Origin: Gemmatimonadota bacterium
GTDB lineage: Bacteria > Latescibacterota > UBA2968 > UBA8231
Assembly: GCA_038128265.1 (NCBI GenBank)
Contig: JAYPJE010000007.1
Span: 8,384-72,383 of the forward strand
Length of the DNA stretch: 64,000 nucleotides
Direction: 5' to 3'
Shown here piece by piece: positions 1 to 18,439 of the stretch. The position numbers and the translations under genes are program-made. The notes under the pieces are model-generated. The model saw nothing but the letters and a program-made list of their open reading frames with translations, ran no database searches and was not told the DNA's origin. Numbering within the stretch: the stretch's first letter is position 1; every line of letters starts with the position of its first letter.

Positions 1-1648
1 GTTTGCGCTAAACTACGCCCTAAGCGGATACGAAACCTGGAGCTATCACCTGCTCTCGCTGCTGCTGCATTTAGGCTGCGTTGGTTTGGTTGCAGCGATA
101 GGGCGCGTGCTACTCGGAACGAGTCGGGGCGCCTGGTGGGCCGCCTGCCTCTTTGCTATCCATCCGATAAACAGCGAGTCGCTCAATTACATCAGCAGCC
201 GCTCTGAAATTATGGCGGCGCTGTTTTTTCTCCTTGCTTTTTGGATCTATCTACAGACGCATTGGCGCGTCGAACGCTGGGTTGCCTGTATTGCGCTTGC
301 CTACGCCTGTGCGCTCTTGGGCAAATCCATTGCGATTGTCCTGCCTGCCGTGCTTCTCGCGCATGCGTGGCTTGTCGGTGCTCGTCGCTCAGGACTGCCG
401 GCGCTGTTTGCTGCACTCGCTGGGGTTGCTCTGGCCTATCTAGCCGTCGTATGGAAATTCCTCGCTCGCGCGACGGTGGGCGAGCCCGTGCGCTCCTACG
501 ACGAGCAGGTGTGGACTCAGGTAAAAGCCCTTGTTTTCTACATCAAAATGGTGCTATGGCCTAGCGGGCAGAGCATTGATCACCAATTTCTCATTTCCGA
601 CACTCCGCTCGACCCAATTGCCGCGTTGGCGCTTCTGTTCGTGCTGTCGCTGACGCTACTGGCCTGGCGCTATCGGCACGGGCATCCAGCTCCGACCTTT
701 TTTCTCGCCTGGTTTCTGTTCGTTCTGGCGCCATCGTCGCTCGTGCCCTTAAACGTATTGGTCAACGAGCACAGGCTGTACTTGCCGGGCGTGGCCCTTT
801 TCTATGCGCTGGGCTATGCGCTCAACCGCCTCGTGCAGTGCTGGTCGTCCCAGCGCAGCGCGATCGAAGCGGCAGCGTTGGTGATCGCCGTGGGCATGGC
901 GGCGGCCACCGTGCAGCGCAATGCCGTGTGGGCTAGCCCACTGGCGCTGTGGCAGTCGGCAGCTGAGCGCGCTCCGCTTATGGCGCGCCCCCACATGTAC
1001 TGGGGCGGAGCGCTGGAAGAGCGCGGGCAGTTTGCCGGTGCGATTAGGGCCTACGAGCACGCCCTGCGACGGGACCCCGGCTTTGCCCCGCTGCACCGGC
1101 GCCTGGGGGCCGCATATATGGAAGTCGATCAGACCGAGCGCGCGATCGCCCTGTTTGAGCGCGGGGTGGCACTCGACCCAACGGACGGCCCCATGTGGTT
1201 GGGCTTGGGTGAGGCGCTGCGCATGGGAGGGCGCTGGCAGGAAAGCTTGAGTGCCTACCAGCGCGCCGTGAACCTAATGCCCGATGACAGTGGGGCGCAC
1301 AACAACTTAGGCAATACCTATCAGGTGTTAGAGCGTCCAGAGCAGGCCCTTGAGCACCACCTGCGCGCGCGGGCGCTGGCCCCAAACGACGCGCAGACGC
1401 AGGTTAACCTGGGCAATGCCTACGCGATGCTGGGTAAGAGCACGGAGGCGTTGGAAGCCTATTCCAAGGCGGTGGATATCGATCCACAATACGGTGGTGC
1501 TTGGTTGAATATGGCCAGCGCGCTGGAGCGTGCTGGCCAAACCCGGGATGCTCTTTCAGCCTACGAGCGGGCGCGGGTGCTCACTGCTGACAAGGGTCCA
1601 TATTTGCAGGCGAAGATTGCTGCACTGCGCGAGGTGCTCGGTGAATAG
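1..1648 (+). CDS. TMTC-like GT-C-fold membrane protein with C-terminal TPR domain, paralog 1 (5' end off the window)
   Basis: The frame is open from nt 2 (FALNYALSGYETWSYHLLSLLLH...), so the ORF-track Met at 86 is internal. It shares the family motifs LNYISSRSE, LGKSIAIVLPAV, PLNVLVNEHRLYLPG and QRNAVW..LW with the five downstream genes. The C-terminal half is TPR-like (NNLGNTYQ, VNLGNAYA, AYSKAVDIDPQY). Confidence 0.8.
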   Translation, partial: FALNYALSGYETWSYHLLSLLLHLGCVGLVAAIGRVLLGTSRGAWWAACLFAIHPINSESLNYISSRSEIMAALFFLLAFWIYLQTHWRVERWVACIALAYACALLGKSIAIVLPAVLLAHAWLVGARRSGLPALFAALAGVALAYLAVVWKFLARATVGEPVRSYDEQVWTQVKALVFYIKMVLWPSGQSIDHQFLISDTPLDPIAALALLFVLSLTLLAWRYRHGHPAPTFFLAWFLFVLAPSSLVPLNVLVNEHRLYLPGVALFYALGYALNRLVQCWSSQRSAIEAAALVIAVGMAAATVQRNAVWASPLALWQSAAERAPLMARPHMYWGGALEERGQFAGAIRAYEHALRRDPGFAPLHRRLGAAYMEVDQTERAIALFERGVALDPTDGPMWLGLGEALRMGGRWQESLSAYQRAVNLMPDDSGAHNNLGNTYQVLERPEQALEHHLRARALAPNDAQTQVNLGNAYAMLGKSTEALEAYSKAVDIDPQYGGAWLNMASALERAGQTRDALSAYERARVLTADKGPYLQAKIAALREVLGE

Positions 1649-3803
1649 GGCCCTGTGCATCGCCGCCGTGTGTGGTCTGCTCTATGCCAATGCGCTGAGC
1701 GGATCGTTTCACTACGACGACTTCCACTCGATTGTCGACAATCCCCACCTGCGCTCGTTGGCCAACGTGCCGGCTTTTTTTGCCGATCCCGATATGTTTT
1801 CCGGCGATCCCGAAAAGAGCATGTATCGCCCGCTGCTCCTGCTGACCTACGCATTCAACTACGCGGTCGGAGGGTATGAGCCCTGGGGATATCTGTTGGT
1901 CAACCTGCTCTTACACGTCTTGGTGAGCGTGCTCGTCGCTCTGCTGGCCGAAAGAATGTTGGTCAGCGCGCGCGCCGGTTGGGTCGCCGGGATGCTCTTT
2001 GCCGTTCATCCGCTGGCAACGGAGTTGGTCAACTACGTCAGCAGCCGATCGGAGTCGTTGGCGGCTTGTTTATACTTGCTGGTTCTGGCCGCCCATGGGC
2101 GCGTAGTTAGGGGGGGGAGCTCGGCCGCTATCGGTGCATACGGCGGCGCGCTGCTGGCTAAATCCGTGGCGATCAGCGCGCCGCTGGCCGCCCTAGCGTG
2201 GGATTGGGGGCAGGGGCGAGCACTGCGCGTGCGGGTCTGGGCTCCCTATGGTGCAGTGGCTCTCTGCTATGCGGTCATCGTCTATCTAAATCGTTTTATC
2301 GGCGATTCGCTCGCTGCTCCGGTGCGCCCCCTGGCGGTGCAGCTATGGACGCAGCTCAAAGCACCGGCCTATTACCTCTACTTGGCTTTTATGCCGGTAA
2401 AGCTCAATGTGCATCACCAATTTTTCACTTCGTCAGGACTTGCTGACCCAGCCGTTTGCCTGGGTTTGGCGCTGGTCCTGAGTATGCTATATATCGGCTG
2501 GCGTGGATGGCGCACGCCCGTGGGCTGGTCTATGCTGTGGGCCGGCTTGGTCCTCGCGCCCACCTTTATCATGCCGCTCAATATGTTGGTTAACGAGCGA
2601 CGTTTGTACTTGCCGATGGCCGGTCTGGCATTCGCGTTGGGGTGGGTTTTGCGTCGTACTTCCGTGCCGACTTCGCTAGGGCTGATCGCGGTACTACTCT
2701 ATGCAGGGCTTACGATTCAGCGCAATGCAGTCTGGCAAGACGAACTGAGTCTGTGGGCGGACGCTGCCGAGAGGGCGCCGCAAATGCACGCGGTGCAGAA
2801 CAATCTGGGCAAGGCCCTGCAGGAAGATGGACGATGGGACGAGGCGCTAGTCGCGTATGGGCGCGCCGCAGCGATTGATCCCCGGCACGGCGATGCCTAT
2901 AACAACGCGGCGACGATTTACCATTTGCGCGGCAAAGAAATGCTCGCCGAAGGTAGGAAAGCGGAGGGCATGGCTTCTCTGCGTCGGGCCCAGGACGCGT
3001 ATCGGAAGGCCCTTGCGGTCTATCCAACGTACGAAGAAATACATCAGAATTTGGCCGTTGCCTGCGCCGAGCTCGGAGAGATAGATCAGGCATTTACCCA
3101 CTACGCGCGCGCGCTGGAACTCAACCCGCAGCGCGGCGACGTGTGGAATAACTACGGACAGCTGCTGTATGACAGTGGTCGTTTGGAACAAGCGGAAGCC
3201 GCATTTGTGCGTGCCATTGAAGCCCAGCCGGAACAGGCTGAGCCCTACAACAATCTGGGCAATATATACGCCGACAGGGGGGATTGGGAGCGGAGCGTTC
3301 GCTCTTACGAAGAGGCATTGGGGCGTGCGGGAACGCAGCGCCAGGCCGTTTTTGTCAATCTGGTTGCGGCGCTGCGCAACGCCCAACAGTATGATCGGGC
3401 GCGCGCACTCCTGCAGGAGCAGATGGCGGCGGGGGGACGGGATGATCGATGGCTTTACCAACTCGCGTTGGTCGAACGCGCGGCCGGTCGCTTAGGCGAA
3501 GCCGAACGCGTGTTGGCAAGCGCGGCGGCGGCGGGCGGGGCCATACAAACACTGGTGCTGTGGGGCGAGGTCTTGGGCGATCTGCAGCGCTACGGCGAGG
3601 CCGCCCAGCGCTTCCAGGACGCACTGGCTTCCGACGGGACCAACGCCCGCGCCTTATATGGCTTGGGCGTTGCGCAGATGCAGGGAGGGCAGCCCCAATC
3701 GGCGCTGGTTACGCTGCGCGCATTTTTGCGGCAATGGCGTTCAGACGACGAGCGCGCGCGGCGGGTGCGCGCGTGGATTGCCCAGCTGGAGGGGGCGCCG
3801 TGA
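1641..3803 (+). CDS. TMTC-like GT-C-fold membrane protein with C-terminal TPR domain, paralog 2 (720 aa)
   Basis: GTG at 1641 overlaps the upstream stop (GTGAATAG). The N-terminus is VNRALCIAAVCGLLYANALSGSFHYDDFHSIVDNPHLRSL. Motifs present: MYRPLLLLTYAFNYA, VNYVSSRSESLAA, LAKSVAISAP, PLNMLVNERRLYLP, QRNAVWQDELSLW. It has a long TPR tail. The ORF-track start at 1530 adds only an Arg/Cys-rich extension inside gene 1. Confidence 0.8.
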   Translation: MNRALCIAAVCGLLYANALSGSFHYDDFHSIVDNPHLRSLANVPAFFADPDMFSGDPEKSMYRPLLLLTYAFNYAVGGYEPWGYLLVNLLLHVLVSVLVALLAERMLVSARAGWVAGMLFAVHPLATELVNYVSSRSESLAACLYLLVLAAHGRVVRGGSSAAIGAYGGALLAKSVAISAPLAALAWDWGQGRALRVRVWAPYGAVALCYAVIVYLNRFIGDSLAAPVRPLAVQLWTQLKAPAYYLYLAFMPVKLNVHHQFFTSSGLADPAVCLGLALVLSMLYIGWRGWRTPVGWSMLWAGLVLAPTFIMPLNMLVNERRLYLPMAGLAFALGWVLRRTSVPTSLGLIAVLLYAGLTIQRNAVWQDELSLWADAAERAPQMHAVQNNLGKALQEDGRWDEALVAYGRAAAIDPRHGDAYNNAATIYHLRGKEMLAEGRKAEGMASLRRAQDAYRKALAVYPTYEEIHQNLAVACAELGEIDQAFTHYARALELNPQRGDVWNNYGQLLYDSGRLEQAEAAFVRAIEAQPEQAEPYNNLGNIYADRGDWERSVRSYEEALGRAGTQRQAVFVNLVAALRNAQQYDRARALLQEQMAAGGRDDRWLYQLALVERAAGRLGEAERVLASAAAAGGAIQTLVLWGEVLGDLQRYGEAAQRFQDALASDGTNARALYGLGVAQMQGGQPQSALVTLRAFLRQWRSDDERARRVRAWIAQLEGAP

Positions 3804-5692
3804 GCGGCCTGCCGATTGCTCGCGCAGTGGGCCTGACCGTGGGGGTCTGGCTGGTCTATGGCCAGGCACTAGGTGGGGGCTTTCACTACGACGACTTCCA
3901 TTCACTGGTTTTCAATCCGCATCTGCGCGACTTGGGCAATATAGGCGCTTTCTTTACGGAGCCTGGTCTGTTTTCGGTGGATCCAAACAAGGCGATGTAT
4001 CGCCCTCTGGTGTTGGTCAGCTACGCGCTCAATTACGCTTGGGGTCAATATAGTCCGGCCGGCTATCTGTTCGTCAATATATCTATTCATCTGACTAATG
4101 TGCTGCTGGTCTGGTCTATTGGCAGACGGCTGGGCCTGAGCGAAAATGGATCGCTGTGGGCCGCTGTGCTGTTTTGCTTCCATCCGCTGGTGGGCGAACC
4201 AATAAACTACGTTAGTAGCCGTTCGGAGAGTTTAGCCGTTGCCGGGCAGCTCGCTGCGTTCTACTTCTACCTGCAAACGGGACGGCGTTGGTGGCCGTGG
4301 CTGAGTTGGGGAGCGCTGCTATGCGCACTGCTGGCCAAGTCCATTGCCGCGGTGCTGCCGGCCGTGCTGCTGGCCTACGAAGTGCTGTGGCGGGGGCAGA
4401 GCGTGTCTTGGCGTCGGCATGCCCCGTACTGGGTAATTACTGGAGCGTATATCGGGGTTATCAGCGCCAACCGCTTTTTGGGCACCTCGCTATCGAACGC
4501 GCCGCGCGGACTCTATGAACAGCTGCTCACGCAGGGAAAGGCCCTGGTATACTACGCCTATTTACTCGCTGAGCCCGTGCATCTGAGCGTCGAACATCCG
4601 TTTTCGGTGTCCAACAGAATGGGTGTCGAGCCGCTACTGGCACTGGGAGCGGTGGTCAGCTTGGTCGTTGTCGCGTTGGTGCAGGGCGATCGCCGCCTGC
4701 GCTTTTTTCTGTGCTGGGGCGGATTGTCGCTGCTGCCGACGGTGCTGGTGCCGCTCAACGTATTGGTCAACGAGCACCGGTTGTATATGCTCGTGGCAGT
4801 GATGTCCATTGCGCTGGGAATGGGCTGGGAGCGATGGGAGCGGCCGGTGCGGTGGAGTCTATGTGTGTGGGTGATCGTTGCCGGGATGCTATCCCATCAG
4901 CGCATTGCGGTTTGGCGCGACGAACTCAGCCTTTGGCAGGATGCAGCGCATAAGGGGCCGCACATGGTGCGGCCGCAGGTCTTTCTCGGCAATGCCTGGC
5001 GGGCGGCAGGGGATTATCCGGCCGCTCGTGCAGCCTATGAACGCGCACTGGAATTGGATCCGCACCACCGCTCGGCGCGCACGAATTTAGCCAATGTCTA
5101 TCTCGAAGCGGCTGGGGGGGACCAGGCGCAGGCACCCTTGCTGTTGGAGCGCGCAGAGCGACACTATCGGCAGGTGTTGGATTCCGATCCCAGTTATCGC
5201 GAGGCCCTCACCAACCTGGGCAGCCTATATATGCTGCGCGGCGAGTGGACGCGCGCTGATGGGGTGCTGTCGGCCGCGATTGAGCAGCATCCCTACTACG
5301 CCGATGGCTATTTTAACCTGGGTTTGGTGCGCGTGGAGCTTGGAGATAGTGCCGCCGCCGTTGCGCTATTTAAACGCGCGCTAGCGTTGGACGAGGGGGC
5401 TGAGATATGGTATGAATTAGCCAATGCGCATGCTCGACTCGACCAGCTGGATGCCGCGGCAGCGGCCTATCGACAGGCCCTCAGTCGAGATCGGGCGGTA
5501 GAGGGTGCGTTGTATAACTTGGCCGAGGTGCTGCTCGTGGCCGGCGAGCGGGCCGGAGCCGCTGCTGGGGATGCTCGGGGTATTGCCCTGTGGCGCGAAG
5601 CGGGAGAGGCTTTGGAAGAGCTGTTGGAACGCGATCCGCGTCACGTGCGTGCAAATCAGCGCTTAGACCAACTGCGCGAGCGCATGCCGTGA
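3800..5692 (+). CDS. TMTC-like GT-C-fold membrane protein with C-terminal TPR domain, paralog 3 (630 aa)
   Basis: GTG at 3800 forms a GTGA overlap with the upstream stop. The N-terminus is VSGLPIARAVGLTVGVWLVYGQALGGGFHYDDFHSLVFNPHLRDL. Motifs present: MYRPLVLVSYALNYA, INYVSSRSESLA, LAKSIAAVLPAV, PLNVLVNEHRLYM, VWRDELSLW, followed by a TPR tail. Confidence 0.8.
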   Translation: MSGLPIARAVGLTVGVWLVYGQALGGGFHYDDFHSLVFNPHLRDLGNIGAFFTEPGLFSVDPNKAMYRPLVLVSYALNYAWGQYSPAGYLFVNISIHLTNVLLVWSIGRRLGLSENGSLWAAVLFCFHPLVGEPINYVSSRSESLAVAGQLAAFYFYLQTGRRWWPWLSWGALLCALLAKSIAAVLPAVLLAYEVLWRGQSVSWRRHAPYWVITGAYIGVISANRFLGTSLSNAPRGLYEQLLTQGKALVYYAYLLAEPVHLSVEHPFSVSNRMGVEPLLALGAVVSLVVVALVQGDRRLRFFLCWGGLSLLPTVLVPLNVLVNEHRLYMLVAVMSIALGMGWERWERPVRWSLCVWVIVAGMLSHQRIAVWRDELSLWQDAAHKGPHMVRPQVFLGNAWRAAGDYPAARAAYERALELDPHHRSARTNLANVYLEAAGGDQAQAPLLLERAERHYRQVLDSDPSYREALTNLGSLYMLRGEWTRADGVLSAAIEQHPYYADGYFNLGLVRVELGDSAAAVALFKRALALDEGAEIWYELANAHARLDQLDAAAAAYRQALSRDRAVEGALYNLAEVLLVAGERAGAAAGDARGIALWREAGEALEELLERDPRHVRANQRLDQLRERMP

Positions 5693-7668
5693 AAAGGCTA
5701 TACGGAGTGCTCATCGCCCATCGGAGCGTCTCCGCGCTCCTGCTAGTGGCCTGTTCCGCGCTGCTCTACGCAAATTCGCTCGATAATGGCTTTCAATACG
5801 ACGACCGCCATTCGATTGTAGAGAATCCGCATATTCGCGACCTGGGTAATCTCAGTGCTTTTTTCTATGACCCCACCCTTTTTTCACGCGACGCCGACAA
5901 GGCGATGTACCGCCCCTTGCTGCTAGCAACGCTCGCGCTGAACCACGCTTGGAGTGGCTACGAACCCTTTTCGTATCACCTGATAAACTGGGCGCTGCAC
6001 GCCCTGTGTGCGCTGTTGGTGTGGGGCATTTTGCTGGGAGCACAGCGACCTCCGTGCTTGGCCCTGTTGGGTGGACTGCTCTTTGCCTTGCATCCGCTCT
6101 GCAGCGAGCCGGTAAACTATATCAGTTCACGCTCTGAGCTGCTCGCCGCTACGGGGGCCCTTGCTGCCCTTTGGCTCTATATGCGAGATCGAGAGGTCGG
6201 CGCATATTGGTCGCTTGTGCTTTCGCTGCTCTGCTTCACCGCCGGATTGTTTGCCAAATCGGTGGCTATCGTTGCACCGGTGTGGTTGGTGGCGTGGGAT
6301 GTGCAGCGGGGACGGGGGGTGCGCTGGCTGCGCTACCTGCCCTATGGAATGGTTGCGCTGGGCTATCTTGCGCTAGTGGGGCAGGCCCTCGAGCGCGCTG
6401 TGCTGGGGGAGCCAGTGCGCACAATGGGCGTCCAGTTGGCCACGCAAGCCAAGGCGTTGGTCTACTATGTCTATTTAGCATGGTCGCCCTTCCACCTCAG
6501 CGTCGACCACGCCTTTGCCGAGTCGAACCCGGCTGATCCGCTGGTTTGGTTGGCGCTCTTTGCCCTGATTTCGTGTGTTGTAGTTGTACTGCGGTGCCGA
6601 GGGGAATATCTGGGATGGGTGCTGGCGCTCAGCGCACTGCTGCCGACGCTTATTGTGCCGCTCAACGTGCTGGTTAATGAACACCGACTCTATTTGCCCG
6701 TTGCAGGGTTGGCCATTGTGCTAACTGGAATACGCGGATTGGAAAGGGTGCCCGGTATGGGGTGGGGGGCGCCGCTGCTGCTGTGCTTGCTCTCGGCGCT
6801 GACGCTGCAGCGCAATGCCGACTGGCGCGACGAGTTTAGCCTGTGGAGCGCCGCGCACCGCACCAATCCCCACTCCGTGCGTCCGCTGGTCTACATGGGC
6901 AATGCCGCGCGGTCCGAGGGAGATGCAGCGCGCGCGCGCATGGCCTATGGCAAAGCACTAGAATTGGATCCGCAAAATGCCGTTGTGCTGGCCGGATTGG
7001 GGGGGGTATTTATGGACGGCGGGCAACTGGACCAGTCCGTCGAGCTGTATGCCCGGGCCCTGGAGGCCCAGCCAGCAATGGTGGATTTGCACTATAGTTT
7101 GGCGCGTGCACTGCAGGAAGGCGGTCGTTATGCCGAGGCGCGCAGGCACTACGCCGCTCTGGATGGCAACAGTCCCCATCGATCGATCGCCCTCAATAAT
7201 ATTGGCACGACTTTTGAACTGCAGGGAACGGTGGACAGCGCGCTGGTATACTATCGTCGTTCGGCTGAGGGCGGTGCCCTGGACGGGCGGCACAACCTTG
7301 AACGGTTGGTTGCGCGCTCTGTTGCCGAAGCGGAGCAGGCGTTAGAGGCTGGCGATTGGCCACGCGTCGAACGGGCTGCACGCACTGCGCTGCGGGGAGA
7401 TCGCCAGCATGCCTACGCGCGCTTTTTTCTCAGCGTCAGCCTGCTGCAGCAGGGGCGTGGGGAGGAAAGTATCGCCGAAAACGAGCGCCTGCTGCGCGAG
7501 CGGCCTGATTTTGATGAGGGGTGGCTGCAGTTGGCCAATGCCTACGAAACGGTTGGGCGGCCAGATCTGGCGCGGGGCGCGTACCGTCAGCTGATCGATC
7601 GGGCACAGAGCAAACCCATGCGCACGCTGGCACAGCAGCGACTGCAGCGATTGGAGCAAAGGCAATGA
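5689..7668 (+). CDS. TMTC-like GT-C-fold membrane protein with C-terminal TPR domain, paralog 4 (659 aa)
   Basis: GTG at 5689 forms a GTGA overlap. The N-terminus is VKRLYGVLIAHRSVSALLLVACSALLYANSLDNGFQYDDRHSIVENPHIRDL. Motifs present: MYRPLLLATLALNHA, VNYISSRSELLAA, FAKSVAIVAPV, PLNVLVNEHRLYLP, QRNADWRDEFSLW, followed by a TPR tail. Confidence 0.8.
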   Translation: MKRLYGVLIAHRSVSALLLVACSALLYANSLDNGFQYDDRHSIVENPHIRDLGNLSAFFYDPTLFSRDADKAMYRPLLLATLALNHAWSGYEPFSYHLINWALHALCALLVWGILLGAQRPPCLALLGGLLFALHPLCSEPVNYISSRSELLAATGALAALWLYMRDREVGAYWSLVLSLLCFTAGLFAKSVAIVAPVWLVAWDVQRGRGVRWLRYLPYGMVALGYLALVGQALERAVLGEPVRTMGVQLATQAKALVYYVYLAWSPFHLSVDHAFAESNPADPLVWLALFALISCVVVVLRCRGEYLGWVLALSALLPTLIVPLNVLVNEHRLYLPVAGLAIVLTGIRGLERVPGMGWGAPLLLCLLSALTLQRNADWRDEFSLWSAAHRTNPHSVRPLVYMGNAARSEGDAARARMAYGKALELDPQNAVVLAGLGGVFMDGGQLDQSVELYARALEAQPAMVDLHYSLARALQEGGRYAEARRHYAALDGNSPHRSIALNNIGTTFELQGTVDSALVYYRRSAEGGALDGRHNLERLVARSVAEAEQALEAGDWPRVERAARTALRGDRQHAYARFFLSVSLLQQGRGEESIAENERLLRERPDFDEGWLQLANAYETVGRPDLARGAYRQLIDRAQSKPMRTLAQQRLQRLEQRQ

Positions 7669-9536
7669 GGCATGGTTGGGTTTGGATCGTCGGAGCGTGC
7701 CTGTTGGTCTACGCAAACTCGCTCCAAAACGGCTTTCACTACGACGACGAACACTCGGTCCAGAATAATATCCACATCCGCGATCTGAGCAATATAGGCC
7801 GTTTTTTTTCGGATCCCGCAACGTTTTCGGTCGATCACGACAAGGGCATGTATCGCCCGCTGCTGTTGGTTAGCTATGCCCTCAACTATGCCGTTGGCGG
7901 CTACGAGGTAGGCGGCTACCATCTGGTAAATATTGCACTACACGCGGCCAATGCATCCCTGCTATGGGCCCTGCTGATCGCGATGGGAGCAGGGCGTTCG
8001 GCTGCCCTGATGGCCGGCTTACTCTTTGCGCTGCACCCGTTGGGCAGCGAGCCAGTAAACTATATCAGTTCGCGCTCAGAAAGCCTGGCTGCCCTTTTCT
8101 ACCTGGGCGGTCTATGGGCTTTTGTCCTGGCCCAGCATAGAGGGAGCCGCGCTTACCGCACGCTGTCCTGGGGCTGTTTGCTCTGCGGGTTATTGAGCAA
8201 GTCGAGCGCTATCACGCTGCCGGCCGTGCTCTTGCTGTATGAAATAATTGTCCTGCGCGGAGCGACGAGCTGGCGTTTGGGACGCGATGTGCTGCGGCGC
8301 CACGGCCCCTACTGGATTGTATCATTCGGCTACATCGCGCTGATCGTGGCCAACCGCTTTTTGACCACTTCGCTGTCCAAGCGCGTGCGTGGGATGGACG
8401 AGCAGCTGCCGACGCAGATCAAAGCCTTGGCCTTCTATGCCAAGCTGCTAGTCTGGCCTCATGGTTTAAATGTGGAGCACCAATTTGCCGTTTCAACCGC
8501 CGGGGCCGCGGCCGTTTGGCCGGCGGTCCTGCTGTTGATCAGCGTTGCGCTAGGCCTGCTGTGGCTGCAGCGCAAAACAAAGCGTGGTCTGCTGTTCCTA
8601 TCTTGTTGGTCTTTGGTCGCGTTGCTGCCCGTAGCTATTATGCCGCTCAACGTGCTGGTCAACGAACGGCGGCTCTACGTGCCCGCTGCCGCCTTTTGTG
8701 CGGCGCTGGCGCTGCTGTTACACCGCCCGAGTCTGCGCCGGCATACACTGCGCATCGGCGGGGCCGTCTTGGTAGTGTATGCCCTGCTGACCTGGCAGCG
8801 CAATGGGGTGTGGGAGAACGACTTTACCCTGTGGGAAGACGCTGTATCCAAGGCACCGCTGATGCCGCGTGCACACCTATATATGGGCAATGCGCACAAA
8901 GACGCTGCGTTTATGCAGCGGGCCGGTAGTTCGCAGGCCGGTGCGCACTGGGAACAGGCGCGCGCAGCATACCGTCGGGCCCTCGAACTTCAGCCCAGCG
9001 GTGAGTTGGCGCTTCGCGCATTAAACAACCTGGGTGCGGTGAGCTTTGTGCTGCGCGACGTGGAGGGGGCAGAGCGGGCCTACCTGCGCGCCGTCGAACT
9101 CAACCCCCGCTTCGCCGATGCGCTGGTCAACCTCGGCACGGTTTATCACGATCGCGGGCGCAATACCAGCGGCGTGGCCGGAAGACAGCTGTTGGGAAAA
9201 TCCGTGGAGTACTACCGGCGCGCGCTGCAGCAACTGCCCAACCACGCCGATGCCTGGGCCAATATGGGGTTGGCCTATCACGATATGGGTGATTTCGCAG
9301 GGGCGCGGCAGGCCTACGAGCGGGCCCTATATCTGAACCCGCGCAACGAGCGGCTGTTGAATAACTTAGGCAATTACTACGCCGCGCTGGCAGAGCAATC
9401 CCAAGGGGCGGAGCGACAGCGCAATCTGCTGGAGGCGCGCTCCTATTTTCAACGAGCGCTGGGTCTCAATCCGGCCTATGCAGGGCCGCGCAGCGGGCTA
9501 CAGTTTGTAGAAGACGCTTTGAAGCAGTTGCAATGA
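7665..9536 (+). CDS. TMTC-like GT-C-fold membrane protein with C-terminal TPR domain, paralog 5 (623 aa)
   Basis: ATG at 7665 forms an ATGA overlap. The N-terminus is MRHGWVWIVGACLLVYANSLQNGFHYDDEHSVQNNIHIRDL. Motifs present: MYRPLLLVSYALNYA, VNYISSRSESLAA, LSKSSAITLPAV, PLNVLVNERRLYVP, QRNGVWENDFTLW, followed by a TPR tail. Confidence 0.8.
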   Translation: MRHGWVWIVGACLLVYANSLQNGFHYDDEHSVQNNIHIRDLSNIGRFFSDPATFSVDHDKGMYRPLLLVSYALNYAVGGYEVGGYHLVNIALHAANASLLWALLIAMGAGRSAALMAGLLFALHPLGSEPVNYISSRSESLAALFYLGGLWAFVLAQHRGSRAYRTLSWGCLLCGLLSKSSAITLPAVLLLYEIIVLRGATSWRLGRDVLRRHGPYWIVSFGYIALIVANRFLTTSLSKRVRGMDEQLPTQIKALAFYAKLLVWPHGLNVEHQFAVSTAGAAAVWPAVLLLISVALGLLWLQRKTKRGLLFLSCWSLVALLPVAIMPLNVLVNERRLYVPAAAFCAALALLLHRPSLRRHTLRIGGAVLVVYALLTWQRNGVWENDFTLWEDAVSKAPLMPRAHLYMGNAHKDAAFMQRAGSSQAGAHWEQARAAYRRALELQPSGELALRALNNLGAVSFVLRDVEGAERAYLRAVELNPRFADALVNLGTVYHDRGRNTSGVAGRQLLGKSVEYYRRALQQLPNHADAWANMGLAYHDMGDFAGARQAYERALYLNPRNERLLNNLGNYYAALAEQSQGAERQRNLLEARSYFQRALGLNPAYAGPRSGLQFVEDALKQLQ

Positions 9537-11440
9537 AGGCGCAATATACTTCGGTGCTGAGCATCCTACTGCTGGCGCTACTCGGTCACGCAAACAGCTT
9601 TCCGGGGGCATTCCACTATGACGATGCCCATTCTATCGTCGAGAATCCGTCGATTCGCTCCTTTGATCATATGCCCGCCCTATTTATCGATCCGGCGCTG
9701 TTTTCCAGTGAAAAGGGCATGGCCATGTACCGGCCGCTGGTGGTGCTCAGCTATCGGCTCAACTATGCGTTGGGGGGGCTTGAGGCGGCTGGCTATATCG
9801 CCGTCAACCTGCTCCTGCACGCCTGTACGGCCGTATTCGTCCTGCTGCTACTGCAGCGCTGGTTACCCGCTGGGATGAGCGCTTGGTCTGCCGCCGCCGT
9901 GTTTGCCCTGCATCCGGTGCATGCGCAGGTGGTCAATTATATAAGCTCGCGTTCGGAGAGCATGGCCGCGCTGGCGGTGTGCGCGACGCTCTACTATGTG
10001 CTGGTTCAACGCGATCGGGCCGCCTGGTGTAGCTACGCGCTGGGCCTTGGGGCCAAGTCGCAGGCCATCGTGTTGATGCCGCTGCTCCTTGTCGTGCAGT
10101 GGGGGCGGAGTCAGGGAACTGCTCTCGTGCGCCTCTTCGTGCCGTTTGCGGCCCTTTCTTTGGGCTATTTGGCGCTGATCTACGGCAATGATTTCCTGCC
10201 GCGCTCGCTGAACCAAGAGGTGAGAGCACCCTTTGTCCAGGCCTATACACAAGCCAAGGCGCTCGTCTATTACGTCTATCTGTTTGTCTGGCCCGTGCCG
10301 TTAAGCGTGGAGCACCCGCTAGGGGAATCGTCGCGGCCCGACGGCGCGGTCCTCTGGGCATTCGCCGCGCTATGCTCTGCTGTATACCTTGCCCTGCGTG
10401 CCCGCTATTGGGCCGGTCGCGCTGCGCTGTTTTGGCTGGCGGCGATGAGCCTGACCAGTATTGTGCCGCTCAATGTAGTGGTCAACGAACACCGCCTCTA
10501 CCTTGGCTCCATCGGTTTGTGCGCTCTGCTGGCCGGGGTGTCCATGGGAGGGGACAAACGGGTGCTGCGCCGCTTGGGCGCAGTCTATTTGTTGGCCCTG
10601 GCCGTGCTCGGGTGGCAGCGCAACGCCGTTTGGCAGGACGAGTATGCGCTGTGGAGCGACGCTGTGGATAAGTCGCCTAACTCCTTTCGTGCACTGAGCA
10701 ATCTTGGTCTGGCCCAACTCGAACGCGGGGAGTTGGAGGCGGCGCGCCAAACGCTGGAACGCGCGCTCCATCTCAACCGGGGGTATGGACGTACCTGGAG
10801 CAATTTGGGCTTGGTCCACGAGGAATTAGGCGCCTACGATAAGGCCGAGTCCTCGTATCGACAGGCCGTGGCGCTGCGGCCCGATTGGACGGGTTTTCGC
10901 CTCCAGCTAGGGCGACTTTACGTGGGATTGGGGCGCTATGGAGAGGCGATTGCCCTGCTGGCAGACGCTGCTGTGGGCGATGTGCACTCGGGGGCCGTGC
11001 ACGCGCTGCTGGGGTTGGCTCATCAGCGTGCAGGAAGGATGCAAAATGCTGTAGAACAGTATAATACAGCTATTACATTAGGAAATACATCAATTGAATT
11101 GCTCAATAACTTGGGGTTGGCTAGGCAGGATCTGGGCGATTGGGAAGGGGCGCGTGCGGCGTTTAGCCAGGCGCTAGGGCTAGCGCCCGAAGACGGGTCG
11201 ACGCGCATCAATCTGCGCATGCTAGAGCTCCGTCAGGAGGGCCGCTCGGCGCTGGCGTGTTATGAGCAATTGGTTGAGGAATTTCCCCGGCAGATCGATG
11301 TATGGCGCGCTCTGGCCAGCGAATTGGCTCGCGTCGGGCGGATAGGCGAGGCCATTGAAGCCTGCTATAAGGTGCTGGAACTCCATCCGCAAGACCGGCA
11401 GGCGGCGGCAAATATAAGGCGTTTAAGAGCGCTGAAATAA
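9533..11440 (+). CDS. TMTC-like GT-C-fold membrane protein with C-terminal TPR domain, paralog 6 (635 aa)
   Basis: ATG at 9533 forms an ATGA overlap. Motifs present: HANSFPGAFHYDDAHSIVENPSIRSF, MYRPLVVLSYRLNYA, VNYISSRSESMAA, PLNVVVNEHRLYLG, QRNAVWQDEYALW. The C-terminus is TPR-like (SNLGLAQLERG, WSNLGLVHEELG). Confidence 0.8.
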   Translation: MKAQYTSVLSILLLALLGHANSFPGAFHYDDAHSIVENPSIRSFDHMPALFIDPALFSSEKGMAMYRPLVVLSYRLNYALGGLEAAGYIAVNLLLHACTAVFVLLLLQRWLPAGMSAWSAAAVFALHPVHAQVVNYISSRSESMAALAVCATLYYVLVQRDRAAWCSYALGLGAKSQAIVLMPLLLVVQWGRSQGTALVRLFVPFAALSLGYLALIYGNDFLPRSLNQEVRAPFVQAYTQAKALVYYVYLFVWPVPLSVEHPLGESSRPDGAVLWAFAALCSAVYLALRARYWAGRAALFWLAAMSLTSIVPLNVVVNEHRLYLGSIGLCALLAGVSMGGDKRVLRRLGAVYLLALAVLGWQRNAVWQDEYALWSDAVDKSPNSFRALSNLGLAQLERGELEAARQTLERALHLNRGYGRTWSNLGLVHEELGAYDKAESSYRQAVALRPDWTGFRLQLGRLYVGLGRYGEAIALLADAAVGDVHSGAVHALLGLAHQRAGRMQNAVEQYNTAITLGNTSIELLNNLGLARQDLGDWEGARAAFSQALGLAPEDGSTRINLRMLELRQEGRSALACYEQLVEEFPRQIDVWRALASELARVGRIGEAIEACYKVLELHPQDRQAAANIRRLRALK

Positions 11441-11533: not shown

Positions 11534-13333
11534 ATGGACGCATCGCGCATCCGCAACTTTTCCATTATCGCTCACATCGATCACGGCAAGTCGACGCTCG
11601 CCGATCGGCTGCTTGAAAAAACGGCTACGCTCACGCAGAAGCAGATGCAGGAACAGGTCCTCGACAGCATGGATCTGGAGCGAGAGCGCGGCATCACGAT
11701 TAAGGCCCATGCCGTGCGCATGAATTACAGGGCCCAAAGCGGCGAAATTTACCAGTTTAACCTCATCGACACGCCGGGCCACGTCGATTTCACCTACGAA
11801 GTTTCGCGAAGTTTGGCCGCCTGTGAAGGCGCCCTGCTCGTCGTGGATGCCACGCAGGGGGTAGAGGCGCAGACCGTGAGCAACTTGCTGCTGGCCATGA
11901 ACAACGACCTGGCCATAATTCCCGTGCTCAATAAGATCGATATGCCCGCAGCGCAGGTCGACTCGGTCAAGCAGCAGGTGCTGGATTTGCTCGGGGGCAG
12001 CGAGGACGAAATTATCTCCATAAGTGCCAAAGCGGGCATGGGGATAGACGAAGTGCTGGAAGCGGTGGTCGAACGCATACCAGCGCCGACCGGACCGCGC
12101 GAAGCGCCGCTGCGCGCGCTGATCTTTGACTCGCTCTACGACCAGTATCGCGGCGTAATATGCTTTATCCGCGTGGTGGATGGCATGCTGCGCAAGGGGC
12201 AGAAGGTGCGCTTTTACTCCACGGGAGTCGTCTACGAAGTTGAGGAAGTGGGCACACTGGTGCTCGACCGGGTTGCGACGCCGGAGCTGCTGGCTGGGGA
12301 AGTGGGCTATTTGACGGCGAATATCAAAGAACTGGATGAAGCGGGAGTGGGCGATACGGTGATGGATGCCGGCAGCGAGGGCGTGCTGCCCCTGCCGGGC
12401 TATCAGCCGCTCAAATCCATGGTATTCAGCGGTATCTATCCGGTTAACCCGGACGACTACGAAGAACTGCGCGACGCGCTGGATCGGCTCAAACTCAACG
12501 ATGCGGCCTTCTCATACGAACCGGAGACATCGCCCGCGCTGGGCTTTGGCTTCCGCTGCGGGTTTCTCGGGCTGCTGCATATGGAGATCATTCAGGAGCG
12601 TCTGGACCGCGAGTACCAGGTTGAAATCATTACCACGCTGCCCAATGTGCGCTATGAAGTCCTCAAGAAGGACGGCGAATTGATCGAAGTTGAAAATCCC
12701 TCGCTATTGCCTCCGGCCGTAGAGATCGACGAGGTGCGCGAACCCATCTTGTCGGTGCAAATACTCGTCCCGAGTGATTACATCGGCGCGGTGATGAAGA
12801 TTTGCAACGATCGCCGGGGCCTCTACCTCAACACGGAATACCTCGATGGCAGCCGCGCCATTCTCAGCTTTGAACTGCCCCTTTCGGAGGTGGTGATTGA
12901 CTTTTACGACCGCCTGAAATCATCGACGCGCGGCTACGCTTCGTTTGACTACGAGCACAAGGAAATGCGGGCTGGACCGCTGGCTAAGCTCGATATTCTC
13001 ATCAACGGCGAACCGCTCGATGCGCTTTCGGCCATTATTCACCGCGATAATGCGCCCGTGTGGGGACGCAAGCTCTGTCTCAAGCTGAAGGAACTGATTC
13101 CGCGCCAGATGTTTGAGGTTGTTATCCAGGGGGCCGTGGGCAATAAGATCGTCGCGCGCGAAGTCGTGCGGCCCTTTCGCAAAAACGTCATTGCCAAGTG
13201 CTATGGGGGCGATATAACGCGCAAGCGCAAATTGCTCGAGAAACAAAAGGAGGGCAAGAAGCGCGCCAAGCAGTTTGGCAAAGTTGAAATACCCCAAGAG
13301 GCCTTTCTCGCTGCGCTCAAAATGGAAGATTGA
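11534..13333 (+). CDS. lepA: Translation elongation factor 4 (LepA)
   Basis: The N-terminus IRNFSIIAHIDHGKSTLADRLLE, then DTPGHVDF and NKID GTPase boxes. The characteristic LepA C-terminus is present (ITRKRKLLEKQKEGKKRAKQFGKVEIPQEAFLAAL). Length is 599 aa. Confidence 0.97.
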   Translation: MDASRIRNFSIIAHIDHGKSTLADRLLEKTATLTQKQMQEQVLDSMDLERERGITIKAHAVRMNYRAQSGEIYQFNLIDTPGHVDFTYEVSRSLAACEGALLVVDATQGVEAQTVSNLLLAMNNDLAIIPVLNKIDMPAAQVDSVKQQVLDLLGGSEDEIISISAKAGMGIDEVLEAVVERIPAPTGPREAPLRALIFDSLYDQYRGVICFIRVVDGMLRKGQKVRFYSTGVVYEVEEVGTLVLDRVATPELLAGEVGYLTANIKELDEAGVGDTVMDAGSEGVLPLPGYQPLKSMVFSGIYPVNPDDYEELRDALDRLKLNDAAFSYEPETSPALGFGFRCGFLGLLHMEIIQERLDREYQVEIITTLPNVRYEVLKKDGELIEVENPSLLPPAVEIDEVREPILSVQILVPSDYIGAVMKICNDRRGLYLNTEYLDGSRAILSFELPLSEVVIDFYDRLKSSTRGYASFDYEHKEMRAGPLAKLDILINGEPLDALSAIIHRDNAPVWGRKLCLKLKELIPRQMFEVVIQGAVGNKIVAREVVRPFRKNVIAKCYGGDITRKRKLLEKQKEGKKRAKQFGKVEIPQEAFLAALKMED

Positions 13334-13336
13334 GCT

Positions 13337-14047: not shown

Positions 14048-14049
14048 GC

Positions 14050-16925: not shown

Positions 16926-16929
16926 GCGC

Positions 16930-18126: not shown

Positions 18127-18187
18127 TTGGTAATTTTTCTGGCCGGAATGCTCGCCGTGCCGATACAATAATTAGGTGAATTATTGT

Positions 18188-18379
18188 ATGAATTTTAAGA
18201 AAAACTACCCATTGCCCGAGCATCTCAGCGACGAAGATGCCCTGCCGCGCAGCCAAGAAGAGCGCCTGATGTGGATTCGACTGCGCGTCGAGAAGGGGTA
18301 CTACGAGAGCGATCGGATTAAAAAAGCCGTTGCGGAAGCGTTTATGGATCCGCCGACGTGCCGACGTGCTGGGGAGTGA
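18188..18379 (+). CDS. Small protein with FlgM-like (anti-sigma-28-like) C-terminus, 63 aa
   Basis: ATG at 18188 is preceded by TAGGTGA. The C-terminal segment EERLMWIRLRVEKGYYESDRIKKAVAEAFMD resembles the FlgM helix pattern (..I..G.Y.vD...iA..m). This is a weak, short match. Confidence 0.3.
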   Translation: MNFKKNYPLPEHLSDEDALPRSQEERLMWIRLRVEKGYYESDRIKKAVAEAFMDPPTCRRAGE

Positions 18380-18403
18380 GCCAGTCTAAAAGAGAATAAA
18401 AAA

Positions 18404-18439
18404 GGCGCCGCATCTACTGGAGATGCGGCGCCTTTTTTT
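18404..18439. terminator. Bidirectional rho-independent terminator
   Basis: A perfect 12-bp stem GGCGCCGCATCT / AGATGCGGCGCC has a 5-nt loop. It is flanked by an A-run (AATAAAAAA) upstream and T7 downstream. It lies between the convergent + operon and tRNA-Tyr. Confidence 0.8.

What the first reader, a model, noticed from the sequence alone, without database searches (positions are those of the whole stretch)
1..11440. Array of at least six head-to-tail paralogs of a TMTC-like GT-C membrane protein fused to TPR domains
Seen: six consecutive same-strand genes, the first truncated by the window edge, so the array may be longer. Each has a polytopic N-terminal domain of about 400 aa. The shared collinear motifs are F(H/Q)YDDxHS(I/L/V)xxNxxxR, MYRPLxxx(S/T)(Y/L)xLN(Y/H)A, (L/V/I)NY(I/V)SSRSE, (A/S/G)KSxAIxxP, PLN(V/M)(L/V)VNE(H/R)RLY and QRNxxWxxxxxLW. 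Each then carries a divergent TPR tail, so protein lengths range from 623 to 720 aa. Established: GT-C glycosyltransferases (PMT, TMTC, ArnT types) carry a catalytic acidic pair in the first extracytoplasmic loop, and metazoan TMTC1-4 are TPR-bearing protein O-mannosyltransferases. Inference: the YDD pair sits right after TM1 in all five complete copies, so the copies look functional rather than decaying. The variable TPR tails could give each copy a different acceptor-protein specificity, i.e. a battery of periplasmic protein glycosyltransferases. I am not aware of a characterised bacterial member, and a six-fold tandem expansion is unusual.
Basis: partly seen in the sequence, partly recalled or inferred. 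Interest (0 to 1): 0.7.

Follow-up and report, generated by a model that had tools for sequence, protein, structure and literature searches.

The report
Ancient bacterial operon of TMTC-like glycosyltransferases
The window opens inside a tightly packed operon of paralogous membrane enzymes that are clear bacterial relatives of the animal TMTC protein O-mannosyltransferases; the set is not a recent expansion but an ancient, fixed-order array (nine copies in the closest relative) shared by Gemmatimonadota and Latescibacterota, and what it glycosylates is unknown.

Summary
Six same-strand paralogs fill window 1-11440, with 4-8 bp start/stop overlaps. Each has an 11-helix N-terminal membrane domain of about 385 aa and a divergent C-terminal TPR tail.

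The TMTC-like GT-C reading is strongly supported. The AlphaFold model (pLDDT 95.5) matches only GT-C enzymes in the PDB. A profile of the bacterial family aligns over the whole TMTC1-4 N-domain (hhalign probability 100%, E 3e-54). The DD, YRP, RxE, K and ExRxY motifs are conserved in every copy. Topology puts the DD loop and the TPR tail in the periplasm. dN/dS is 0.09-0.17 for all copies.

The array is not an unusual expansion. It is longer than six: a seventh copy lies just upstream, and the closest relative has nine copies plus an embedded AsnB-type amidotransferase. Copies c1-c6 keep the same order in Gemmatimonadota, Latescibacterota and Handelsmanbacteria MAGs, always followed by lepA-lepB-hemW-Wza-Wzz and, where seen, preceded by sugar-modification genes.

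The family is very large (about 10^5 cluster representatives), yet no Pfam or NCBIfam model covers its membrane domain. The acceptor, protein or polysaccharide, is unresolved. I found no characterised bacterial member; TfpW of Pseudomonas has the same architecture.

The parts
2..1648 (+). c1: TMTC-like GT-C + TPR paralog, 5' end cut by the window edge (full length 630 aa). N-domain to about nt 988, TPR tail after that.
   Evidence: 351 bits, HMM positions 78-398. Completed by L003, which is 99.8% identical over window 1-2132. dN/dS 0.12 (N-domain) and 0.16 (TPR).
1641..3803 (+). c2: paralog, 720 aa, GTG start overlapping the c1 stop by 8 bp. DD codons 1716-1721, KS 2160-2165, ERRLY 2595-2609. 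N-domain to about nt 2792, and the longest TPR tail.
   Evidence: (493 bits). TPR Pfam hits. dN/dS 0.14 and 0.13.
3800..5692 (+). c3: paralog, 630 aa, GTGA start/stop overlap. DD codons 3890-3895. N-domain to about nt 4972.
   Evidence: (481 bits). dN/dS 0.09 and 0.17.
5689..7668 (+). c4: paralog, 659 aa, GTGA overlap, FQYDD variant. DD codons 5800-5805. N-domain to about nt 6882.
   Evidence: (500 bits). dN/dS 0.10 and 0.15.
7665..9536 (+). c5: paralog, 623 aa, ATGA overlap. DD codons 7743-7748. N-domain to about nt 8870.
   Evidence: (507 bits). dN/dS 0.11 and 0.11.
9533..11440 (+). c6: paralog, 635 aa, ATGA overlap. DD codons 9620-9625. N-domain 9533-10690, followed by a tail of about seven TPR hairpins. 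This is the last gene of the array.
   Evidence: 462 bits. AlphaFold models: N-domain pLDDT 95.5 / pTM 0.94, full length pLDDT 93.5 / pTM 0.88. GT-C fold matches.
11534..15231 (+). lepA (11534-13333), signal peptidase I lepB (13337-14047) and hemW-type radical SAM (13981-15231). These housekeeping genes always follow the array in relatives. They are conserved neighbours and no functional link is shown.
   Evidence: Pfam. HemW TIGR00539 at 297 bits. The same order occurs in 27 fetched loci, counting overlapping and duplicate loci.
15225..18126 (+). Wza-like polysaccharide export protein (15225-16925; Poly_export + SLBB) and a Wzz/GNVR chain-length-determinant-like protein (16930-18126). These neighbours are conserved downstream of the array. 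Any functional link is inferred.
   Evidence: Pfam. NCBIfam EpsE / pepcterm_export / chain-length-determinant hits, all below the curated cut-offs. Synteny.

Best explanation
The six genes are the distal two-thirds of an ancient operon of paralogous inner-membrane glycosyltransferases of the TMTC type (GT-C fold). In the closest relative the operon has nine such genes plus one AsnB-type amidotransferase.

Each protein has a cytoplasmic N-terminus and 11 transmembrane helices. Its periplasmic active site is built from the DD pair in the first loop, the YRP loop, the RSE motif, the K(S/E) motif, an (E/D)H motif and the E-x-R-x-Y motif. A C-terminal TPR solenoid lies in the periplasm.

By homology, each enzyme takes a sugar from a polyprenyl-phosphate-sugar donor and transfers it to a hydroxyl group of an acceptor held by its own TPR module. 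I think the acceptors are most likely exported proteins. That would make the operon a battery of non-redundant protein O-glycosyltransferases, each with its own site or client, as in TMTC1-4 and TfpW.

What is shown and what is inferred:
- Shown: fold, homology, topology, conservation, purifying selection, and the age and fixed order of the array.
- Inferred: catalytic activity, a lipid-linked donor, a protein acceptor, and a division of labour through the TPR tails.
For: Fold:
- The AlphaFold N-domain model has pLDDT 95.5 and pTM 0.94.
- Its 31 best PDB matches are all of the GT-C fold: STT3, ArnT, PglB, EmbA/B, Pmt4, Pmt1/2, ALG9, ALG3, DPY19, plus the GPI-transamidase subunit PIGU. Most have probability 0.9-1.0 and TM-score about 0.3-0.56. 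Matches ranked after these are noise.

Homology to TMTC:
- hhalign of the 97-sequence family N-domain against a 12-sequence TMTC1-4 alignment (taken from the supplement of PMC7801869) gives probability 100%, E 3e-54 and 374 aligned columns.
- In local mode E is 8.6e-40. A reversed-sequence control gives probability 0.1%.
- A plain HMM of the family scores 114-150 bits on each animal TMTC.
- TMTC motifs M1, M2, M3, M4, M5 and M7 align with FHYDD, MYRPL, SSRSE, KSxAI, (E/D)H and NE(H/R)RLY.

Topology:
- The model has 11 helices.
- Short loops predicted to be cytoplasmic carry 65 K+R across the six copies, against 14 in short periplasmic loops.
- The odd helix count puts the TPR tail in the periplasm.

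Functionality:
- D30, D31, R67, R140, K175, E319, R321 and Y323 are kept in essentially every complete copy across 19 loci. Position 142 is an acid in all but three. The only other departures are one c4 lineage with D at 319 and a few ambiguous residues.
- dN/dS against the 80%-identical relative is 0.09-0.17 for both the N-domain and the TPR tail of all six copies.

Division of labour:
- TPR tails are 20-33% identical between paralogs but 71-84% identical between orthologs.
- Paralog-specific signatures persist across phyla: Q131 in c6, ERRY in c2 and c5, DH in c1.
- Copies c1-c6 keep the same order in Gemmatimonadota, Latescibacterota and Handelsmanbacteria MAGs. Orthologs across phyla (41-50% identity) are closer than paralogs within a genome (33-42%).

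Precedent for protein acceptors:
- TMTC1-4 O-mannosylate cadherins (PMC7801869).
- TMEM260 is another GT-C with a TPR domain that O-mannosylates proteins.
- TfpW has 11 TM helices, a DDX motif and a periplasmic TPR domain, and is required for pilin O-glycosylation.
- The best structural matches of the tail are the TPR domains of OGT and SPINDLY, together with designed consensus TPR proteins.
- A second cluster of paralogs in the same genomes lies among housekeeping genes with no polysaccharide genes nearby.
Against: - No acceptor or donor has been identified.
- No polyprenyl-phosphate-sugar synthase (GT2) is present in the 64 kb window or in the 10 kb upstream region of the relative.
- The conserved neighbourhood looks like a polysaccharide locus. 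Upstream are an epimerase, a UDP-glucose dehydrogenase, four methyltransferases, a FemAB-like protein and a GT4. An AsnB-type amidotransferase sits inside the array, and Wza/Wzz lie downstream. This fits a glycan acceptor at least as well as a protein acceptor.
- The glutamate that the TMTC models propose as metal ligand (KE motif) is serine in all six window copies.
- The TMTC DW motif is (E/D/H)H here.
- Pfam DUF1736, the hallmark of TMTC, does not hit.
- TPR domains can also bind polysaccharide, as shown for PgaA (title and abstract of PMC9384988).
Confidence: 0.5

Rival explanations
1. The paralogs are a periplasmic assembly or decoration line for a surface polysaccharide. Each GT-C adds one specific sugar or linkage from a polyprenyl-phosphate-sugar to a growing or exported glycan. 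The TPR tails bind the polymer or dock onto the Wza/Wzz export machinery. The analogy is with the mycobacterial tandem paralogs EmbC-EmbA-EmbB and the Aft enzymes.
For: - The array is contiguous, on one strand, with sugar-nucleotide and glycan genes upstream. In the closest relative these are an epimerase, UDP-glucose dehydrogenase, methyltransferases, a FemAB-like protein and a GT4 whose end overlaps the first paralog. In Handelsmanbacteria they are NeuB, a WbuX amidotransferase, a GT4 and a PMT_2+TPR protein.
- An AsnB-type amidotransferase is embedded in the array in every lineage examined.
- Wza- and Wzz-like genes follow in most of the 27 fetched loci that carry lepA.
- A fixed gene order and translational coupling suit enzymes that act in sequence on one product.
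- Emb proteins are among the fold matches.
- The TPR domain of PgaA binds polysaccharide.
Against: - The closest characterised homologs (TMTC) and all characterised proteins with this exact architecture (TMTC, TMEM260, TfpW) modify proteins.
- lepA, lepB and hemW separate the array from Wza/Wzz, so that link may be positional only.
- No Wzx, Wzy, initiating phosphoglycosyltransferase or synthase was seen in the stretches examined.
- Additional paralog clusters lie in housekeeping contexts.
Confidence: 0.33
2. The paralogs work as one hetero-oligomeric machine, as the Pmt1-Pmt2 heterodimer does, in which only some subunits are catalytic and the others are regulatory or scaffolding pseudo-enzymes.
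For: - The 4-8 bp start/stop overlaps suggest coupled, stoichiometric translation.
- Gene order is conserved across phyla.
- At position 176 there is a genome-wide switch (S in all copies, or E in c2-c6). This suggests that the copies co-evolve with a shared ligand or partner.
Against: - Every copy keeps the full set of catalytic and donor-binding residues in nearly every lineage examined.
- All copies show similarly strong purifying selection in the catalytic domain.
- Pseudo-enzymes would be expected to lose the DD pair.
- No interaction data exist.
Confidence: 0.1
3. The array is a recent, lineage-specific tandem amplification of one gene, giving redundant copies.
For: Head-to-tail arrangement of similar genes.
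Against: - Paralogs are only 37-47% identical in the N-domain and 20-33% in the TPR tail.
- Each copy has a positional ortholog in the same order in distant MAGs, and that ortholog is more similar than any paralog within the genome.
Confidence: 0.02

Closest known systems
Metazoan TMTC1-4 (protein O-mannosyltransferases of cadherins; CAZy GT105)
   Same: - Full-length homology of the membrane domain (hhalign probability 100%; 114-150 bits by plain HMM).
- 11 TM helices, N-terminus inside, DD in the first outward-facing loop.
- YRPL...LN, HP..E..R.(D/E), K(E/S), E-R-x-x-Y-type and T..RN motifs in the same order.
- A C-terminal TPR domain on the same side as the active site.
- Several paralogs per genome with different TPR regions.
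   Different: - Bacterial inner membrane and periplasm instead of the ER.
- The membrane domain is shorter (about 385 aa against about 430-470 aa), with a shorter fifth loop.
- The DNPA motif is absent and there is no Pfam DUF1736 hit.
- The DW motif is replaced by (E/D/H)H.
- KE is KS in this lineage (KE is kept in some relatives).
- The genes are arranged as an operon of nine.
- Donor and acceptor are unknown.
Pseudomonas aeruginosa TfpW (pilin D-arabinofuranosyl transferase, GT-C)
   Same: According to the preprint 10.1101/2020.04.19.049825, TfpW is 646 aa with a cytoplasmic N-terminus, 11 predicted TM helices, a DDX motif in the first periplasmic loop and a large periplasmic TPR domain. 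It has a Yx6P-type motif in the fourth periplasmic loop; the window family has invariant Y247-x6-P254. It is a bacterial enzyme required for protein O-glycosylation that uses a polyprenyl-phosphate sugar.
   Different: - It is a single gene next to its acceptor gene pilA, not an array.
PMT/POMT family (GT39), including actinobacterial Pmt
   Same: - GT-C fold, an acidic pair in loop 1, a polyprenyl-phosphate-mannose donor and protein Ser/Thr acceptors.
- Pmt1, Pmt2 and Pmt4 are among the fold matches.
- A few homologs of the window proteins carry weak precomputed PF02366 or PF13231 hits.
   Different: - PMTs carry a MIR beta-trefoil domain in a loop and have no TPR tail.
- None of the window copies reaches a PMT or PMT_2 Pfam hit at E<=10.
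ArnT (GT83) and STT3/PglB (GT66)
   Same: They are among the best structural matches (5f15 with TM-score 0.52, 6s7t with 0.56). They share the GT-C core and the periplasmic or lumenal active site.
   Different: - Their acceptors are lipid A or Asn.
- There is no TPR domain.
- A profile of the window N-domains gives no sequence-level match to any PDB chain.
Mycobacterial EmbC-EmbA-EmbB
   Same: Tandem paralogous GT-C genes, each with a C-terminal periplasmic acceptor-binding domain. They use a polyprenyl-phosphate sugar. They are fold matches.
   Different: - Three genes rather than nine.
- The C-terminal domain is a carbohydrate-binding module, not TPR.
- The acceptor is arabinan.
- There is only distant structural similarity.

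Membership tests
GT-C fold glycosyltransferases | Polytopic membrane domain with the conserved GT-C helical core | tested here: met
   The AlphaFold model (pLDDT 95.5) was searched with Foldseek. The 31 best PDB matches are all of the GT-C fold (GT-C enzymes plus the GPI-transamidase subunit PIGU), most with probability 0.9-1.0.
GT-C fold glycosyltransferases | Acidic catalytic residue(s) in the first extracytoplasmic loop | tested here: met
   The DD pair directly follows TM1 in c2-c6 and in the completed c1. It is invariant in 97 homologs. The positive-inside count places this loop outside.
TMTC family (GT105) | Full-length homology of the N-terminal 11-TM domain to TMTC1-4 | tested here: met
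   hhalign gives probability 100%, E 3e-54 and 374 columns. Local mode gives E 8.6e-40, the reversed control gives probability 0.1%, and hmmsearch gives 114-150 bits.
TMTC family (GT105) | Motifs M1 (DD), M2 (SHKSYRP), M3 (RxD) and M7 (ERxxY) of Eisenhaber et al. 2021 | tested here: met
   The window has FHYDD, (K)xMYRP (YRP kept, the His/Lys only partly), SRSE (R-x-E) and NE(H/R)RLY, all aligned to the TMTC motifs.
TMTC family (GT105) | Motif M4 KE(T/Q)xxT with the proposed metal-binding Glu, and motif M5 DW | tested here: inconclusive
   The Lys is invariant. The Glu is Ser in all six window copies, although it is Glu in c2-c6 of three related genomes. DW is replaced by (E/D/H)H.
TMTC family (GT105) | Significant match to Pfam DUF1736 (PF08409), the TM7-TM8 loop | tested here: not met
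   There is no hit at E<=10 for any of the six N-domains. None of the 120 listed homologs carries PF08409. The loop still aligns to TMTC at profile level. I therefore file the proteins as a bacterial sister group of TMTC, not as TMTC orthologs.
TMTC family (GT105) | C-terminal TPR domain on the same (non-cytoplasmic) side as the active site | tested here: met
   TPR Pfam hits occur in all tails. The 11 helices and N-in topology put the C-terminus in the periplasm. The full-length model has pTM 0.88.
TMTC family (GT105) | Transfer of mannose from polyprenyl-phosphate-mannose to Ser/Thr of folded protein domains | not testable with these tools
   This needs biochemistry or glycoproteomics.
PMT family (GT39) | Pfam PMT/PMT_2 match and a MIR domain in a lumenal loop | tested here: not met
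   No PMT, PMT_2 or MIR hit was found in any window copy.
TfpW-type pilin glycosyltransferases | Sequence homology to TfpW and location next to a pilin gene | not tested
No pilin gene adjoins the array. Only the architecture matches.
O-antigen ligase / Wzy_C-type oligosaccharyltransferases (PglL, TfpO) or transporters | Wzy_C domain or a transporter fold | tested here: not met
   There is no such Pfam or NCBIfam hit. Transporters appear among the fold matches only at noise level, with probability <=0.08.

The most novel reading that the evidence does not exclude
The nine fixed-order paralogs form a previously unrecognised bacterial glycosylation system of Gemmatimonadota and Latescibacterota. 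In this reading it is a periplasmic, TMTC-type, polyprenyl-phosphate-sugar-dependent machine whose members each recognise a different protein client or site through their TPR solenoid, or add successive residues of one glycan. It would be distinct from the PglB, PglL/TfpO and actinobacterial Pmt systems. It would also represent the bacterial stock from which the eukaryotic TMTC O-mannosylation pathway derives.
Probability: 0.25. Interest if true: 0.8.

Novelty: new variant of a known kind. Interest (0 to 1): 0.6.

Why it matters
TMTC enzymes are treated as an animal pathway for cadherin O-mannosylation. In the PDB copy I searched, no TMTC chain came up. Their catalytic activity was still inferred from sequence analysis and modelling in 2021 (PMC7801869).

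This window shows that bacteria hold a very large sister family. About 10^5 cluster representatives at 50% identity match the membrane domain (the count probably includes eukaryotic TMTCs). That domain is invisible to Pfam and NCBIfam, so the genes are named only 'tetratricopeptide repeat protein'.

An operon of nine such enzymes, kept in one order across phyla and under purifying selection, implies nine separate jobs in envelope glycosylation in a poorly studied part of the bacterial tree.

It also offers tractable, small, well-predicted bacterial models for the structure and mechanism of TMTC-type enzymes. Cultured Gemmatimonas species may give a concrete place to look for a new bacterial glycoproteome or surface glycan, if they carry the array as a MAG named Gemmatimonas phototrophica does.

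Tried and rejected
- Single-sequence Pfam and NCBIfam scans of the N-domains found nothing.
- A 6-sequence profile against PDB sequences found nothing. The 97-sequence profile was swamped by TPR matches. The fold and the TMTC link therefore had to come from AlphaFold plus Foldseek and from an hhalign run against a TMTC alignment transcribed from a paper supplement.
- Foldseek with the full-length model returned only TPR proteins.
It is absent from the window, from the 10 kb upstream region of the closest relative and from around a second paralog cluster.
- A link to the PEP-CTERM/exosortase system was considered because AsnB, FemAB-like, GT4, Wza and Wzz give their best or near-best NCBIfam matches to XrtA-associated models. 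All of those scores are far below the curated cut-offs and no exosortase was seen, so I do not claim the link.
- A protein upstream of the array in L045 has a C-terminal helix plus an RRRRKK tail but no PEP motif. I dropped it.
- Looking up the x1 ortholog of the window's own contig (P0281) returned no record, so the upstream part of the window's own array is inferred from relatives.
- Five literature searches found no characterised bacterial TMTC homolog and no description of these arrays. A sixth search turned up TfpW.

Full report
**The observation**

Window 1-11440 carries six consecutive + strand ORFs, the first cut by the window edge. I chose the start codons that give a short N-terminus before the first hydrophobic helix. 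The genes are then c1 <2-1648, c2 1641-3803, c3 3800-5692, c4 5689-7668, c5 7665-9536 and c6 9533-11440. Successive genes overlap by 4-8 bp at GTGA or ATGA junctions.

N-domains are 37-47% identical between copies and TPR tails only 20-33%. Each copy scores 351-507 bits against an HMM of the family N-domain. Pfam sees only TPR repeats, and these occur in every tail.

**The array is longer than the window shows**

A 3.6 kb public contig (L003) is 99.8% identical to window 1-2132. It completes c1 to 630 aa, including FHYDD, and shows a further copy, c0, immediately upstream.

The closest genome is a Gemmatimonadota MAG, GCA_038153405.1. It is 80.5% identical in DNA over 21.5 kb and collinear with the window. 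Its locus reads as follows:
- Upstream: epimerase, methyltransferase, UDP-glucose dehydrogenase, unknown, methyltransferase, FemAB-like, methyltransferase, GH-like, methyltransferase, GT4.
- The array: x1 (599 aa), x2 (581), AsnB-type amidotransferase (623), c0 (622), c1 (630), c2 (719), c3 (630), c4 (657), c5 (623), c6 (640).
- Downstream: lepA, lepB, hemW, Wza-like, Wzz-like.

That makes nine paralogs plus one embedded amidotransferase. An x1 ortholog, P0281, is very similar to that MAG's x1 (P0293). Its longest recorded contig has the same length, 112,407 bp, as the one listed for proteins the window itself encodes (P0042 and P0292). I therefore infer that the window's own array has the same upstream part. 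I could not read that DNA.

**What the proteins are**

Neither Pfam nor NCBIfam recognises the membrane domain. A small profile finds no PDB sequence.

An AlphaFold model of the c6 N-domain, built on 97 homologs, is very confident (pLDDT 95.5, pTM 0.94). Foldseek against the PDB returns GT-C-fold proteins in all of the first 31 places: STT3, ArnT, PglB, EmbA/B, Pmt4, Pmt1/2, ALG9, ALG3, DPY19 and the GPI-transamidase subunit PIGU. Most have probability 0.9-1.0 and TM-score about 0.3-0.56. The matches ranked after these are noise.

To test the TMTC idea directly, I transcribed twelve rows of the TMTC1-4 alignment from the supplement of Eisenhaber et al. 2021 (PMC7801869) and compared profiles.
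- hhalign gives probability 100%, E 3e-54 and 374 aligned columns, covering the whole domain.
- In local mode E is 8.6e-40, and a reversed control gives probability 0.1%.
- A plain HMM of the bacterial family scores 114-150 bits on every animal TMTC.

The published TMTC motifs align as follows:

| TMTC motif | Window family |
|---|---|
| M1 DD | FHYDD |
| M2 SHKSYRP | (K)xMYRP |
| FAVHPIHTEAVAGVVGRAD | FALHPxxSEPVNYISSRSE |
| M4 KE(T/Q)xxT | KSxAI |
| M5 DW | (E/D/H)H |
| M7 ERxxY | NE(H/R)RLY |
| T..RN | TxQRN |

The differences from TMTC are these:
- KE is KS in all six window copies.
- DW is (E/D/H)H.
- There is no DNPA motif.
- The fifth loop is shorter.
- Pfam DUF1736 does not hit.

I therefore treat the proteins as a bacterial sister group within the TMTC superfamily, not as TMTC orthologs.

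**Topology and state of the copies**

The model has 11 membrane helices. Across the six copies, short loops predicted to be cytoplasmic carry 65 Lys+Arg, against 14 in short periplasmic loops. The N-terminus is therefore inside, while the DD loop and the TPR tail are in the periplasm, as in TMTC and TfpW. The full-length c6 model is also confident (pLDDT 93.5, pTM 0.88) and has about seven TPR hairpins. Its best PDB matches are designed consensus TPR proteins and the TPR domains of OGT and SPINDLY.

Against the 80%-identical relative, dN/dS is 0.09-0.17 for both the N-domain and the TPR tail of each of the six copies. The residues D30, D31, R67, R140, K175, E319, R321 and Y323 are kept in essentially every complete copy in 19 loci, and position 142 is an acid in all but three. 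The copies are functional, not decaying.

**Age and distribution**

One scan of species-representative genomes returned 66 loci from MAGs named Gemmatimonadota, Latescibacterota, Handelsmanbacteria and Planctomycetota. Most of the longer loci hold five or six copies within the flank fetched, and almost every locus holds at least two.

Best-match analysis shows positional orthologs of c1-c6 in the same order in all three main groups. Orthologs are 41-50% identical across groups, while paralogs within a genome are 33-42% identical. Where the upstream part was fetched, the pattern x1, x2, AsnB, c0, c1-c6 recurs. It is seen complete in a MAG named Gemmatimonas phototrophica (L045 with L022) and in Handelsmanbacteria (L048 with L011), partly in a Latescibacterota chromosome, and with ten copies in a marine MAG.

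The genes lepA-lepB-hemW-Wza-Wzz follow the array in 27 fetched loci, counting overlapping and duplicate loci. The same genomes carry a second small cluster of two or three paralogs. In the one example I annotated (L059) it lies among housekeeping genes.

The family as a whole is very large. The window's six-sequence N-domain profile finds 108,726 cluster representatives at E<=1e-3 and 23,566 at E<=1e-30 among 1.84 billion representatives. This count probably includes eukaryotic TMTCs. Sources name the bacterial members 'tetratricopeptide repeat protein' or, in JGI, 'protein O-mannosyl-transferase'.

**Signs of division of labour**

TPR tails differ strongly between paralogs (20-33% identity) but are conserved between orthologs (71-84%). 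Paralog-specific active-site signatures persist across phyla: c6 always has Q where the others have E in HPxxxE, c2 and c5 have ERRY where the others have EHRY, and c1 has DH.

Position 176 is Glu in TMTC. It is Ser in all copies of the window's clade, but Glu in c2-c6 of three other genomes. Such a genome-wide switch in paralogs that are only about 40% identical suggests a shared ligand, either donor or metal.

**Mechanism**

By homology I propose that each protein is a periplasm-facing glycosyltransferase that uses a polyprenyl-phosphate sugar, and that its TPR solenoid presents the acceptor.

I favour protein acceptors, with a probability of about 0.5. Every characterised enzyme with this architecture modifies proteins:
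- TMTC1-4 (PMC7801869).
- TMEM260.
- The bacterial TfpW, which has 11 TM helices, a DDX motif and a periplasmic TPR domain, and is required for pilin O-arabinosylation.

The main rival, at about 0.33, is an Emb-like set of enzymes that build or decorate an exported polysaccharide. The conserved neighbours argue for it: sugar-nucleotide enzymes, a GT4, AsnB and Wza/Wzz. A hetero-oligomeric machine with non-catalytic members is possible but disfavoured, because every copy keeps the catalytic set. Neither donor nor acceptor is identified. No polyprenyl-phosphate-sugar synthase lies in the window or in the stretches of relatives I examined.

**Novelty**

The fold and the superfamily are known. Eisenhaber et al. 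note prokaryotic homologs in one sentence. I found no paper that characterises a bacterial member of this family or describes these arrays.

What is new is the combination of three things:
- A very large bacterial sister family of TMTC that domain libraries do not cover.
- Altered metal-site motifs.
- An ancient fixed-order operon of nine paralogs inside a glycan locus.

I rate it a new variant of a known kind, with interest 0.6.

Noticed in passing
window 38882-47458: Three paralogous FG-GAP / ASPIC-UnbV proteins lie at 38882-40567 (+), 43279-45006 (-) and 45011-47458 (-); the last also carries TPR repeats. Two TPR-only proteins are interleaved with them, at 40568-42016 (-) and 42015-43268 (+).
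   Followed up: no
window 50685-61829: A same-strand run of large ORFs has almost no Pfam matches. It includes 1042 aa at 51735-54863, 1009 aa at 58800-61829, and four ORFs between them. The only hits are weak ones to CBM9 (50685-51701) and to F5/8 type C (56301-57953).
   Followed up: no
window 18441-18525 (-), in the low-GC stretch 18001-20000: A tRNA-Tyr (GTA) gene lies between the Wzz-like gene and a sigma-70 gene (18582-19430, - strand). GC falls to 0.52 here, against about 0.60 elsewhere.
   Followed up: partly
related loci L070 13594-15465, L048 13656-15527, L045 4459-6342: An AsnB-type glutamine amidotransferase of about 623 aa sits inside the paralog array, between x2 and c0, in every lineage where that part was fetched. 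It scores about equally on the generic asparagine synthase model and on the XrtA/PEP-CTERM amidotransferase model, and is below the cut-off of the latter.
   Followed up: partly
c1-c6 and their orthologs in L004-L046 (position 176 of c6; window nt 10058-10060 in c6): The residue after the invariant Lys of the K(E/S) motif is Ser in all copies of the window's clade. It is Glu, as in TMTC, in c2-c6 of three other genomes (L022, L016, L011). This means parallel changes in paralogs that are only about 40% identical.
   Followed up: partly
L048 6591-8783: In the Handelsmanbacteria MAG, a different GT-C + TPR protein (730 aa, Pfam PMT_2 plus TPR) lies just upstream of the array. It sits next to NeuB, a WbuX-type amidotransferase, a FemAB-like protein and a GT4.
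   Followed up: no
L059 9926-14126; also L054, L055, L057, L063, L047, L038, L052: The same genomes hold a second conserved cluster of two or three paralogs (two on the + strand, often one on the - strand). In L059 it is flanked by two PALP enzymes and aspS, with no polysaccharide genes nearby.
   Followed up: partly
whole family: No Pfam-A or NCBIfam model detects the membrane domain of this family, although about 10^5 cluster representatives match it. Public annotation therefore reduces these enzymes to 'tetratricopeptide repeat protein'.
   Followed up: yes
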